Source: Naegleria gruberi (lineage: Eukaryota). Taken from it: 64,000 nucleotides of DNA. Of the stretch, positions 24,729 through 27,263 are shown in pieces (within the stretch, counting starts at the first letter, position 1; every line of letters begins with the position of its first letter). The DNA lies in NCBI GenBank assembly GCA_000004985.1, contig GG738888.1; one strand, 5' to 3'. A model generated the notes under the pieces. It was not told the DNA's origin and did no database searches. It saw only the letters and a list, made by a program, of their open reading frames with translations. A program made the position numbers and the translations under genes.

Positions 24729-27263
24729 CTATTTGAGAGAGGAGGTGGTATCGTTTGTTGAATTTGAATCCACACTAATGTATGGTTTGGTTTGATGGAG
24801 TGGAATGGCTGTATTTAGTATTGTCATATCTTGTTGTTGTGGTGGTACTGATGATGGTGATGGTTGTTGTTGTTGAATGGTATGCTGATGTTCAACAGTG
24901 GTATCATTAATGGATTTGTTATGAGATCCAACTCTTCCTAATACCTTGGAAACAAATTGATTTTCAAATTCCTTCATTCCAATATAGTGAGTTTTGTAAG
25001 TTGGTGTTTGTTTCAATCTGCTAAAGGCGTCAATCATTTGAAAAGTTACCAAACTAATAAATTTCTTCTTCCAATCCAATTTGCTTGTGATAATTCCTTG
25101 ATGACTGATTGGAACTTGAGTTATTGTCGATTCCTCAATCACCATTTCAAGTTTTTTCAAATTAGTTTCCAAACTGTCCTTCAATTTGAATGAAGTTGCC
25201 TCTGCATTTAGTATATTCTTCAAAACATAATTTGGGAATATATTTGTAATGTCCTGTTCGGTAAAGTTTGAATTCTTTGAGACAAAAATATAGACTTCCA
25301 ATAACTCGGCTCTGAATTCTGCGGCCAGAAATCTTTTCATAATATCTACACAGAGTACATCGTCCACTTTGTGAGCGAAAAAAAATTCCATTTCTGATTT
25401 CAATTGTTTCAGACCTTCAAACTCGAGGGCTGGCTGTCTAGATTCGTACCAATAAATGAGAATCAAATAACCTGGTTCAAAACAAACCAAACAAACTTCA
25501 AATAATGTTTTGGAAATACCATAAAGAGAATATCCAATAATATGAGTGGCCATCATATTCGTAACTGGTAAAAAGTACACTTCACTCATGTAACTTCCAT
25601 TAATCAAGCTCAGAGCAAAGTAAAGTATTCCAGCCAGTGCAGTAATAATAACAGCTAAAAACTCTGCATGATATTTAAAAGTATCGTCATAAACAAAATA
25701 CCACTTGACAACTTTGGTAAAACTTCCCAATTGTTTGATAATTCCTCTATTGGTCAGCAAGTATAATGTCGTAGAACTGAGACTGAGAAAAATCATTACA
25801 GCAAATGCACCTATGGTCAAATAATCTAAAATATCATTCTTTAAGGTAGTATCAGCAATACCAGAAACTAGGTAAATTAAAATAACCTCAAAACCAATTA
25901 AAAGAATGGAGCAAATAATGTAAGTGATTTTGGATGAAATAATTCTGAACCAGAACGTTTCCTTCCTCTCAGATTCATAATACTTCTTGTAGAACCATCT
26001 ACAAAGAAAGTATCTCACCGTTTGCAAGGTATACAATGAAAATACCAATACCAGGACAGCAGTCATGACAAGGTTCATATAATAATTGTCAAAGGATGCC
26101 ATCACAAAACCAAATCTCAATACACTCACCAGAAAGAATAGAACTGTTGAAAAGTAGGGCGAGAAGAATCTCGATTGAATATATCTATTCCTTCTAGCCT
26201 TGACCAGCATTACCAAAAGACCAATGCAAACAAGTGCCACAATGAAACAAGAAATACCCTTCCAAATATTGTAGAATGGTCTTGTTTGAAAAAAAGCTGC
26301 ATTACATTCCTTTTCCCATCCATGTGATTGAGTCAAGTTGAAAATTTGAACCACTTCGAATAGTTGCTCCTCCTTCAGAAATGGAGCCGTGTAAGACTCA
26401 TTTCTCGAAAATTTAACAAACTCTTGTAGTCCAGTATTTTTCTTGAACACTATTTGCACAATAGTTTTACCATTCAAACGTGGCAATAGGGTATTATCGA
26501 TGTTGAGTTTAGTTGTCAATTGAATAGGATAAAAGGAGTTCAATTGCAAGTCCTGATGGGTTAATTCACTCCTATTAGAATTGAAAATTAAATTCTCCAA
26601 TTTAGTAGCTGGTCGACGACACTCTTCAAAATGTGTCTGATTCCTGTAAATGATACACACTGAATACGAATATTCTCCAAACGTATCCAAATTCCTAGGT
26701 AAATAGCTAACATGATTGCAGAAAAAGTAATAGGGAACATTAACAAGCATGCCACTAGGAGTAGTTGTTAAAGTTTCTGAAGGTGTGACTGAAGTAAGAA
26801 ACGAAATTCCATGACAAATAATAGTCCTATCAATACTTGATGATTTTAGTTGAAATTTCATGTTACTCATCATTGATTGATTAACACCCCCTGAAAGAAT
26901 TAAATCCCATTCCACTCGTACAGGTCCAGTCACTAGACAATTATTAAATAAATTCGTAGAAATCCCAGCAGTAGCCTCCACCATCATCACATTTTCCAAC
27001 ATTAATAAATTAAATATCCAATAATAACAAATTATATTGACAATAATTCCAGATATTGCTCCTCCCTTTTGATGATGATTATATTTCCTGTTGTTCGTTA
27101 TCATTTCTCTCCGATAAAAATCATAAGAAAAACACAAGCAGTCTCTCTTTGATTTCAGCACAGTCGCCACACAATCCAAAATTGTTGTGGGTGGCCCTGT
27201 TTTTGCTTTTTCGTAGTGTGGAGCTTTTTTTTGTGTGTTTGATTTGTGGTTTTGCAAAGACAT
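24729..27263 (-). CDS. Seven-transmembrane receptor-like protein with a large N-terminal ectodomain and a C-terminal RGS-like domain
   Basis: First real ATG at 27263 (MSLQNH...); the track start at 27323 is GTG. A signal-anchor precedes a ~300 aa ectodomain, followed by seven hydrophobic helices between residues ~330 and 640. The C-terminal region FFFAHKVDDVLCVDIMKRFLAAEFRAELLEVYIFV ... FQMIDAFSRL resembles the RGS fold signature F..FL..EFS.ENL.FW. The call rests on hydropathy and weak motif resemblance. Confidence 0.5.
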   Translation of the reverse strand: MSLQNHKSNTQKKAPHYEKAKTGPPTTILDCVATVLKSKRDCLCFSYDFYRREMITNNRKYNHHQKGGAISGIIVNIICYYWIFNLLMLENVMMVEATAGISTNLFNNCLVTGPVRVEWDLILSGGVNQSMMSNMKFQLKSSSIDRTIICHGISFLTSVTPSETLTTTPSGMLVNVPYYFFCNHVSYLPRNLDTFGEYSYSVCIIYRNQTHFEECRRPATKLENLIFNSNRSELTHQDLQLNSFYPIQLTTKLNIDNTLLPRLNGKTIVQIVFKKNTGLQEFVKFSRNESYTAPFLKEEQLFEVVQIFNLTQSHGWEKECNAAFFQTRPFYNIWKGISCFIVALVCIGLLVMLVKARRNRYIQSRFFSPYFSTVLFFLVSVLRFGFVMASFDNYYMNLVMTAVLVLVFSLYTLQTVRYFLCRWFYKKYYESERKETFWFRIISSKITYIICSILLIGFEVILIYLVSGIADTTLKNDILDYLTIGAFAVMIFLSLSSTTLYLLTNRGIIKQLGSFTKVVKWYFVYDDTFKYHAEFLAVIITALAGILYFALSLINGSYMSEVYFLPVTNMMATHIIGYSLYGISKTLFEVCLVCFEPGYLILIYWYESRQPALEFEGLKQLKSEMEFFFAHKVDDVLCVDIMKRFLAAEFRAELLEVYIFVSKNSNFTEQDITNIFPNYVLKNILNAEATSFKLKDSLETNLKKLEMVIEESTITQVPISHQGIITSKLDWKKKFISLVTFQMIDAFSRLKQTPTYKTHYIGMKEFENQFVSKVLGRVGSHNKSINDTTVEHQHTIQQQQPSPSSVPPQQQDMTILNTAIPLHQTKPYISVDSNSTNDTTSSLK

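What the first reader, a model, noticed from the sequence alone, without database searches (positions are those of the whole stretch)
24729..27263. Candidate seven-TM receptor with a large ectodomain and a C-terminal RGS-like domain
The hydropathy profile shows a signal-anchor, a ~300-aa luminal/extracellular domain, seven closely spaced hydrophobic helices, and then a ~200-aa cytosolic tail. The start of that tail (MKRFLAAEFRAELLEVYIFV) and a later helix (FQMIDAFSRL) resemble the RGS-box signature. A 7TM-RGS architecture (as in plant AtRGS1) would make this a self-contained G-protein GAP/receptor. The call is low confidence, but it could be a distinctive signalling component if correct.
Basis: inference. 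Interest (0 to 1): 0.5.

Follow-up and report, generated by a model that had tools for sequence, protein, structure and literature searches.

The report
Cryptic Naegleria seven-helix receptor with RGS tail
This Naegleria gruberi gene, so far annotated only as "predicted protein", encodes a surface-receptor-like protein with seven membrane helices and a very divergent G-protein-regulator (RGS-fold) tail; this architecture is already known in Naegleria and plants, so it is a new hidden member, not a new kind of system.

Summary
Window 24729-27263 (minus strand) is one uninterrupted 844-codon gene of Naegleria gruberi (NAEGRDRAFT_71148, "predicted protein"). It encodes:
- an N-terminal hydrophobic signal or anchor;
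- a ~243-aa ectodomain, predicted beta-rich at low confidence, with cysteines and N-glycosylation sequons;
- seven TM helices with a clear positive-inside pattern;
- a ~250-aa cytosolic tail.

Against it: Pfam RGS and ordinary HMM searches find nothing. One of the three key G-alpha-contacting residues (RGS4 Asn88) is an invariant Leu, as in axin. GTPase-activating (GAP) activity is therefore unproven.

The family has only about nine detectable members, from N. gruberi and environmental contigs. Since 28 7TM-RGS proteins are already described in N. fowleri, this is a divergent new member of a known kind. Interest is moderate to low.

The parts
24729..27263 (-). Complete single-exon coding sequence (844 aa plus stop) of N. 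gruberi NAEGRDRAFT_71148 / XP_002673857.1 / UniProt D2VQ35
   Evidence: ORF list and translation. 100% identical to P0001. Aligns without frame breaks to the paralogue P0002.
27063..27263 (-). aa 1-67: basic, non-conserved N-terminal stretch before the hydrophobic segment. It may be partly 5' leader if translation starts at Met54.
   Evidence: 13 K+R. Not alignable to P0002. The public model omits it.
26994..27062 (-). aa 68-90: hydrophobic signal peptide or signal anchor
   Evidence: Hydropathy peak 1.81. There is an equivalent hydrophobic segment in P0002 and a classical signal peptide in P0005.
26265..26993 (-). aa 91-333: ectodomain, predicted beta-rich at low confidence, with conserved cysteines, 5 N-glycosylation sequons and a conserved W-x3-C...R motif just before TM1. 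No recognisable family.
   Evidence: AF2 strands, pLDDT ~40-69. Invariant C/W/R columns. Sequons. No Pfam or PDB sequence match. Least conserved part of the family, 20-24% identity to distant members.
25485..26264 (-). aa 334-593: seven-transmembrane bundle with a GPCR-like fold
25437..25475 (-). aa 597-609: short helix after a conserved FEPxYL break at the cytosolic end of TM7 (helix-8-like)
   Evidence: AF2 helix H502-514 of the model. F-E-P-x-Y-L is invariant among four full-length members.
24912..25421 (-). aa 615-784: cytosolic RGS-homology (RGS-fold) domain with 8 predicted helices
25281..25340 (-). aa 642-661, MKRFLAAEFRAELLEVYIFV: equivalent of RGS alpha3-alpha4 (RGS4 F76-C95). Most conserved element of the tail.
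25014..25043 (-). aa 741-750, FQMIDAFSRL: equivalent of the RGS alpha7-alpha8 junction (RGS4 L159-F168). Contains D745 (aligned to D163) and the invariant R749 (aligned to R167).
   Evidence: The alignment here is colinear but low-confidence.
24732..24911 (-). aa 785-844: Q/S/T/P-rich low-complexity C-terminal end, absent from the paralogue

Best explanation
The gene encodes a receptor-like membrane protein of the 7TM-RGS type.

Anatomy:
- A signal peptide or anchor places a ~243-aa glycosylated, cysteine-containing ectodomain (predicted beta-rich) outside the cell or in the lumen.
- A GPCR-fold seven-helix bundle spans the membrane.
- A helix-8-like segment leads into a cytosolic RGS-homology domain.

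Proposed mechanism, inferred by analogy with Arabidopsis AtRGS1 and the N. fowleri 7TM RGS2-4 proteins. The tail docks on the switch regions of one or more of Naegleria's many G-alpha subunits in their GTP or transition state, at the membrane. A signal sensed by the ectodomain or 7TM bundle changes the tail's access to G-alpha, by conformational change or internalisation, and so sets the lifetime of G-alpha-GTP.

Shown here (on predicted models): the ORF, the topology, the 7TM GPCR-like fold and the RGS-like fold of the tail.

Inferred only: G-alpha binding, GAP activity and ligand control.

The Asn88 equivalent is Leu and the Asn128 equivalent is probably Lys. I therefore put about 0.8 on '7TM plus genuine RGS-fold homologue', about 0.55 on 'binds G-alpha', and only about 0.35 on 'is an efficient GAP'.
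For: ORF and identity.

Topology.

Sequence level:
- hhalign of the family tail profile against five verified RGS domains aligns EFRAELLEVY with RGS4 EYSEENIDFW. Score 28.6, P 5.5e-4.
- 200 column shuffles give mean 12.0, SD 2.3, maximum 21.7.
- The same register is obtained with each of the five RGS sequences separately.
- The greedy alignment is colinear over 103 columns and puts AFSRLKQTxxY on SYRRFLKSxxY.
- Family-invariant residues L646, E649, Y658, R749 and T753 fall on RGS4 L80, E83, W92, R167 and S171. Four of these (L80, E83, W92, S171) are invariant in my five-sequence RGS alignment; R167 is not.
- alpha3-alpha4 is the best conserved part of the tail.

Context:
- N. fowleri has 28 7TM-RGS proteins, and three of them are shown to be GAPs (PMC9283941).
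- N. gruberi is reported to have ~229 RGS genes and more than 30 G-alpha subunits (44 in one count) (PMC5784254; PMC8584482).
- Many bikonts have 7TM-RGS proteins (PMC3971589).
Against: - No Pfam hit to PF00615, or to anything else, at E<=10 for the whole protein, the tail alone or the paralogue.
- No RGS among PDB sequence hits with single or profile queries.
- My RGS HMM gives only 4.7 bits.
- hhalign probability is only 30%, and it is confident over only ~33 columns.
- Three G-alpha contacts of RGS4 are called critical in PMC8252600. Asn88 is an invariant Leu (L654). Asn128 seems to be Lys693 (uncertain alignment). Only Asp163 (D745) is kept.
- The distant family members P0005 and P0006 lack the alpha6 region.
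- The best single-sequence match is axin, whose RGS domain is known (my own knowledge) for binding APC, not for GAP activity.
Confidence: 0.6

Rival explanations
1. The tail is a true RGS-fold homologue that has lost G-alpha-directed GAP function. It would then serve as a protein-interaction or scaffold module, like the RGS-homology domains of axin, the sorting nexins SNX13/14/25 or the GRKs. The protein would be a 7TM receptor that recruits some other partner.
For: - The RGS4 Asn88 position is an invariant Leu. The motif A-E-L-L-E-x-Y resembles axin's A-D-L-L-D-F-W more than the E-E-N-x-x-F-W of GAP-active RGS proteins, and axin gives the highest single-sequence hhalign score (26.0 against 16.9-21.2).
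- The Asn128 equivalent is probably Lys or Arg in most members.
- The alpha6 region is dispensable in P0005 and P0006.
Against: - The acidic residues aligned to E87 and D163, and the Arg aligned to R167, are conserved.
- All experimentally tested 7TM-RGS proteins of the same genus act on G-alpha (PMC9283941).
- Naegleria G-alpha subunits are lineage-specific, so the interface may have co-evolved (PMC3971589).
Confidence: 0.25
2. The tail is not homologous to RGS domains at all. On this reading the AlphaFold model is an over-interpretation of an amphipathic helical region, and the protein is an orphan GPCR-like receptor with a lineage-specific helical tail of unknown role.
For: - All sequence-to-profile searches are negative.
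- The alignment is shallow and pLDDT is below 50 for 33 of 174 residues.
- hhalign probability is 30%.
Against: - The nine best of 48,164 PDB chains are all RGS domains, and further RGS-like domains (p115 and PDZ-RhoGEF rgRGS, GRK1, GRK2) follow.
- An independent sequence-profile method picks the same family in a structurally consistent register, and the score lies beyond all shuffles.
- Several family-invariant residues coincide with RGS-invariant core residues.
Confidence: 0.12
3. The protein belongs to the Golgi/endosomal 'beta-sandwich ectodomain plus 7TM' group (GOST/LUSTR: TMEM87, GPR107/108, GPR180, Wntless). It would act in trafficking rather than as a G-protein regulator.
For: The layout is superficially similar: signal peptide, ~200-240-aa ectodomain predicted as beta-rich, then seven TM helices. 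The resemblance is recalled from memory only.
Against: - There is no Pfam Lung_7-TM_R hit or similar.
- This reading does not explain the RGS-fold tail.
Confidence: 0.03

Closest known systems
Naegleria fowleri 7TM RGS proteins (Nf 7TM RGS1-4; 28 genes; Bosch et al. 2022, PMC9283941)
   Same: Same genus and same order of parts: an extracellular N-terminal domain, seven TM helices and a C-terminal cytosolic RGS-fold domain. Plausibly the same job, a membrane-anchored regulator of the expanded G-alpha family.
   Different: - Those proteins were found with HMMs built from mammalian RGS domains. This family is invisible to such HMMs (4.7 bits) and to Pfam.
- No sequence relationship to anything outside its own ~9-member family was found in 1.84 billion representatives.
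- The ectodomain has no EGF, lectin or GPS elements detectable by Pfam.
- The Asn88 equivalent is Leu.
- Direct comparison with the Nf sequences was not possible with these tools.
Arabidopsis AtRGS1 (the prototype 7TM-RGS)
   Same: Seven TM helices followed by a cytosolic RGS-fold domain, giving a proposed receptor-regulated GAP for G-alpha (PMC3386157 abstract; PMC9283941).
   Different: From my own knowledge, AtRGS1 has only a short N-terminus and keeps the E-N pair (E320, N321) in alpha4. Here there is a ~243-aa ectodomain, and the pair reads E653-L654. No detectable sequence similarity.
Canonical RGS box (RGS4 and the R4 family; Pfam PF00615)
   Different: Below every Pfam or HMM threshold. 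Asn88 is Leu, and Asn128 is probably Lys. There is an extra ~12-residue disordered insertion between alpha6 and alpha7, and a long C-terminal helix.
Axin RGS-homology domain
   Different: Axin is a soluble scaffold of Wnt signalling with no TM region (my own knowledge). Identity is only ~10%. There is no evidence that this family binds an APC-like partner.
GPCRs with large ectodomains (classes B, C and adhesion)
   Different: Sequence identity is 5-13%. No Pfam 7tm_1/2/3, GPS or ANF-receptor match. Class assignment is not possible.

Membership tests
RGS domain (Pfam PF00615, RGS box) | Significant match to the family's sequence profile | tested here: not met
   No Pfam family at E<=10 for the full protein, the tail or the paralogue. 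An HMM of 5 verified RGS domains scores the ORF 4.7 bits with all filters off. PDB profile searches return no RGS.
RGS domain (Pfam PF00615, RGS box) | All-helical bundle of about nine helices that superposes on solved RGS domains | tested here: met
RGS domain (Pfam PF00615, RGS box) | Conserved alpha3-alpha4 core motif F-L-x-x-E-(F/Y)-x-x-E-x-L-x-F-W | tested here: met
   F645-L646-x-x-E649-F650-x-x-E653-L654-L655-x-V657-Y658 aligns without gaps to RGS4 F79-W92. hhalign score 28.6, P 5.5e-4, with 0 of 200 shuffles reaching it, and the same register with 5 separate RGS sequences.
RGS domain (GAP-competent subset) | Asn at the RGS4 Asn88 position (hydrogen bond to G-alpha switch I Thr182; PMC8252600) | tested here: not met
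   L654 is invariant Leu in all family members with this region. The register is confident.
RGS domain (GAP-competent subset) | Asn (or Ser) at the RGS4 Asn128 position, which orients the G-alpha catalytic Gln | tested here: inconclusive
   A motif comparison by eye (SFKLKDS against EVNLDSC) puts K693 there. hhalign does not align this loop with confidence, and the model is below pLDDT 50-68 there. P0005 has an Asn nearby.
RGS domain (GAP-competent subset) | Asp at the RGS4 Asp163 position, and the structural Arg167 | tested here: met
   D745 is acidic in 6 of 7 members and R749 is invariant. They align colinearly to D163 and R167 in the greedy hhalign alignment, but with low per-column confidence.
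RGS domain (GAP-competent subset) | Acceleration of G-alpha GTP hydrolysis; preferential binding to G-alpha-GDP-AlF4- | not testable with these tools
   This needs biochemistry.
7TM-RGS proteins (AtRGS1, Trichomonas and Naegleria 7TM RGS) | Seven TM helices N-terminal to the RGS domain, with the RGS domain on the cytosolic side | tested here: met
   Seven helices by hydropathy and AF2. GPCR-fold match. The positive-inside rule puts the tail in the cytosol.
7TM-RGS proteins (AtRGS1, Trichomonas and Naegleria 7TM RGS) | Detectable common ancestry with described 7TM-RGS proteins | tested here: not met
   An exhaustive phmmer search of 1.84 billion representatives returns only 8 relatives, none carrying a name or a Pfam RGS. 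The profile searches add nothing. Membership is therefore by architecture and fold only. The N. fowleri sequences themselves could not be fetched.
GPCR superfamily (7TM fold) | Seven-helix bundle with GPCR connectivity that superposes on solved receptors | tested here: met
GPCR superfamily (7TM fold) | Membership of a defined class (Pfam 7tm_1/2/3, Frizzled, Dicty_CAR and so on) and G-protein exchange (GEF) activity | tested here: not met
   No Pfam 7TM family matches. GEF activity is not testable here.
Adhesion-type receptors with GAIN/GPS | GPS motif immediately before TM1 | tested here: not met
   No Pfam GPS or GAIN match. The conserved pre-TM1 motif is W-x3-C-x7-R-x2-Y-x-I-W-K, which by eye is not a GPS consensus.
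GOST/LUSTR (TMEM87, GPR107/108, Wntless) | 7TM bundle and luminal beta-sandwich that superpose on solved members | tested here: not met

The most novel reading that the evidence does not exclude
This small, apparently Naegleria-group-restricted family is a 7TM receptor whose RGS-fold tail has been rewired. With Asn88 replaced by Leu, in an axin-like motif, it no longer acts as a GAP. It would instead hold a G-alpha subunit, or a non-G-protein partner, at the receptor. That would make it a 'pseudo-RGS' receptor scaffold coupled to a previously undescribed cysteine-containing ectodomain fold.
Probability: 0.25. Interest if true: 0.5.

Novelty: new member of a known kind. Interest (0 to 1): 0.33.

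Why it matters
- It gives a first functional hypothesis to a set of N. gruberi "predicted proteins": NAEGRDRAFT_71148, 74079 and 74204, plus the tail-only model 68334. None of them has a Pfam domain.
- It shows that counts of RGS and 7TM-RGS genes made with HMMs miss at least one divergent subfamily. Examples of such counts are 28 7TM-RGS in N. fowleri and ~229 RGS in N. gruberi.
- If the tail really binds G-alpha without the canonical Asn, it would be a natural test case for how much of the RGS/G-alpha interface is dispensable.
- The architecture itself is already well documented in Naegleria, Trichomonas, plants and some fungi. The result extends a known theme and does not open a new one.

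Tried and rejected
- Pfam scans of the whole protein, the tail, the paralogue and five ectodomains found nothing.
- PDB sequence searches, with a single sequence, tail profiles of 2 and 7 sequences, and an ectodomain profile, gave only chance hits: Pumilio, TFPI and uL23, all with E>0.005. I rejected these as composition or repeat noise.
- Word-indexed homologue searches with the tail profile and the full profile at E<=10 returned no relatives beyond those already found.
- The metagenome contig scan with a 4-sequence alignment matched 150 pattern sites, none confirmed.
- A look-up of the paralogue's locus, for a DNA-level comparison, found no record. The loci of P0004 and P0005 are short environmental contigs with uninformative neighbours.
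- The afdb50 fold library was unavailable. I therefore could not look for AlphaFold DB proteins sharing 7TM plus RGS or the ectodomain fold.
- I considered a GOST/LUSTR-type protein and an adhesion-GPCR GPS motif. Neither is supported.
- I considered, from memory only, a DOMON-like ectodomain, because of the pattern 'L-x-W-x-L ... F-x-L ... C-x-G-x-x-F'. Nothing supports it at the sequence level, and the ectodomain model is too weak to judge.
- dN/dS was not attempted. The closest relatives are only 66% identical in protein, so synonymous sites would be saturated.
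Full report
**1. What is at the coordinates**

The window is AT-rich eukaryotic DNA (32-38% G+C). Positions 24729-27263 on the minus strand form one open frame of 844 codons from the first ATG. The frame is open up to a GTG at 27323. From base composition I estimate a chance probability of roughly 1e-28 for such a frame.

The product is 100% identical to Naegleria gruberi XP_002673857.1 (NAEGRDRAFT_71148, UniProt D2VQ35), which is annotated only as "predicted protein". No paper in the searchable library mentions it or its paralogues.

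The public model starts at Met93 and so removes a hydrophobic N-terminal segment (aa 68-90). That segment has a counterpart in the paralogue P0002 (NAEGRDRAFT_74079, 66% identical), and the relative P0005 has a classical signal peptide. The longer reading is therefore more likely. Whether translation starts at Met1 or Met54 cannot be decided here.

**2. Topology**

Kyte-Doolittle analysis finds the N-terminal hydrophobic segment, a polar stretch of 243 residues, and seven hydrophobic helices between aa 334 and 593.

An AlphaFold2 model of aa 96-790 was built from a 9-sequence family alignment (mean pLDDT 61.8; 70-86 in the membrane part). It shows seven long helices, a break at the conserved FEPxYL, and a short helix-8-like segment.

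Loop charges follow the positive-inside rule. The cytosolic loops have 4/10, 6/26 and 5/30 K+R. The outer loops have 0/7, 1/10 and 0/12. Five N-glycosylation sequons and six conserved cysteines lie in the ectodomain.

**3. The tail**

Sequence-to-profile methods fail. There is no Pfam hit at E<=10. No RGS appears among PDB sequence hits. An HMM I built from five canonical RGS domains, each verified as PF00615 with 102-138 bits, scores the ORF only 4.7 bits.

(a) Profile-profile comparison.
- The family tail alignment, compared with the RGS alignment, aligns DDVLCVDIMKRFLAAEFRAELLEVYIFVSKNSN with RGS4 residues 68-100, which are helices alpha3-alpha4. Score 28.6, P 5.5e-4, probability 30%.
- 200 column shuffles of the query give a mean of 12.0, SD 2.3 and maximum 21.7.
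- Each of the five RGS sequences taken alone gives the same register, with axin best.
- With a greedy setting the alignment extends colinearly over 103 columns.

(b) Structure prediction.
- An AlphaFold2 model of the tail alone was built from 7 family sequences, without templates and with no canonical RGS in the alignment. It has pLDDT 71.4 and pTM 0.65, with core blocks at 85-92, and eight helices.

On this evidence I regard the tail as a genuine but very divergent RGS-fold domain (aa ~615-784).

**4. Is it a GTPase-activating protein?**

PMC8252600 names three RGS4 contacts as critical: Asn128, Asn88 and Asp163.
- Asn88 corresponds to L654 in the confident part of the alignment, and L654 is invariant in the family.
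- The acidic residue before it (E653, aligned to RGS4 E87) is conserved.
- D745 and the invariant R749 align to Asp163 and Arg167, with low confidence.
- The Asn128 loop is poorly modelled and poorly aligned. A comparison by eye puts K693 there.

The motif A-E-L-L-E-x-Y resembles axin's A-D-L-L-D-F-W. From my own knowledge, axin's RGS domain is known for binding APC, not for GAP activity.

Two distant members (P0005, P0006) lack the alpha6 region.

GAP activity is therefore plausible but far from assured. Naegleria's G-alpha subunits are a lineage-specific expansion (PMC3971589), so a co-evolved interface cannot be excluded.

**5. The family**

An exhaustive phmmer search of 1.84 billion cluster representatives finds only eight relatives:
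- three further N. gruberi proteins: P0002; P0006 (NAEGRDRAFT_74204); and P0009 (NAEGRDRAFT_68334), a 113-aa tail-only model;
- five proteins from environmental assemblies.

The environmental genes examined are single-exon genes on short contigs.

Within the family the ectodomain is the most variable part, 20-24% identical to distant members. The 7TM part is intermediate at 29-47%. The alpha3-alpha4 element is the most conserved part of the tail at 46-57%. This pattern fits a variable sensor joined to a constant cytosolic output.

The ectodomain matches nothing by sequence and its model is of low confidence. Its fold remains open.

**6. Comparison with what is known**

The 7TM-RGS architecture is established in Arabidopsis (AtRGS1), in Trichomonas, and in many bikonts and some opisthokont protists (PMC3971589; PMC3386157).

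It is also established in Naegleria itself. Bosch et al. 2022 describe 28 7TM-RGS proteins in N. fowleri, many with elaborate ectodomains. They showed that the RGS domains of three of them accelerate GTP hydrolysis on specific G-alpha subunits (PMC9283941). Those proteins were found with HMMs built from mammalian RGS domains, and that method does not see the present family.

N. gruberi is reported to have ~229 RGS genes (PMC5784254). A further, cryptic 7TM-RGS subfamily there is not surprising.

I file it as a new member of a known kind, by architecture and predicted fold. Common ancestry with the described 7TM-RGS proteins could not be shown.

**7. Verdict**

The most likely mechanism is a receptor-like 7TM protein whose cytosolic RGS-homology domain engages G-alpha at the membrane, under the control of the ectodomain and 7TM bundle.

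My probabilities are about 0.8 for a real RGS-fold homologue, 0.55 for G-alpha binding and 0.35 for efficient GAP activity. The main rival, at 0.25, is an axin-like or SNX-like non-GAP interaction module.

Interest is 0.33.

Noticed in passing
window 18178-23243 (+): Three consecutive same-strand ORFs look like exons of one receptor-type hybrid histidine kinase. They are 794 aa with an EGF_2 match, 356 aa with no match, and 402 aa with HisKA + HATPase_c + Response_reg. This gene lies just downstream of the 7TM-RGS gene, on the opposite strand.
   Followed up: partly
window 27391-29677 (-): Two adjacent minus-strand ORFs (337 aa and 404 aa) sit immediately upstream of the 7TM-RGS gene and have no Pfam match. 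They are separated by ~58 bp and may be one gene with a short intron. By eye, the second ends in a cysteine-rich stretch followed by a hydrophobic helix, so it is probably another surface protein.
   Followed up: partly
window 26985-26987 and 27261-27263 (candidate start codons Met93 and Met1): The public gene model (XP_002673857.1, 752 aa) starts at Met93, inside or just after the hydrophobic N-terminal segment. That segment is conserved in the paralogue, and a relative has a signal peptide, so the deposited model is probably 5'-truncated.
   Followed up: yes
P0009 (N. gruberi XP_002676429.1, 113 aa) and P0007/P0008 (environmental): Some family members exist only as tail-only (RGS-like) models of 84-202 aa that start at the same Met (M-E/D-x-F-L/F-A). 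They could be partial gene calls on short contigs or genuinely free-standing soluble versions of the domain.
   Followed up: no
window 25467-25484 (aa 594-599, CFEPGY): A conserved F-E-P-x-Y-L motif sits at the cytosolic end of TM7, just before the helix-8-like segment. By position it recalls the NPxxY motif of class A GPCRs. This is a resemblance only.
   Followed up: no
window 30200-31546 (-), 36924-41195 (-), 42706-48817 (+), 12376-15218 (-), 15506-17992 (-), 61904-63136 (-): These are ordinary eukaryotic neighbours. They comprise an inositol polyphosphate kinase, a full-length ABC transporter, a myosin heavy chain split over two ORFs, a GH2-type mannosidase split over two ORFs, a protein kinase split over two ORFs, and a Sel1-repeat protein. 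No other RGS domain was detected in the window.
   Followed up: partly
window 23322-24359 (-): A 345-aa ORF directly downstream of the 7TM-RGS gene is rich in S/T/N/K/R low-complexity sequence. It has no Pfam match and was not examined further.
   Followed up: no
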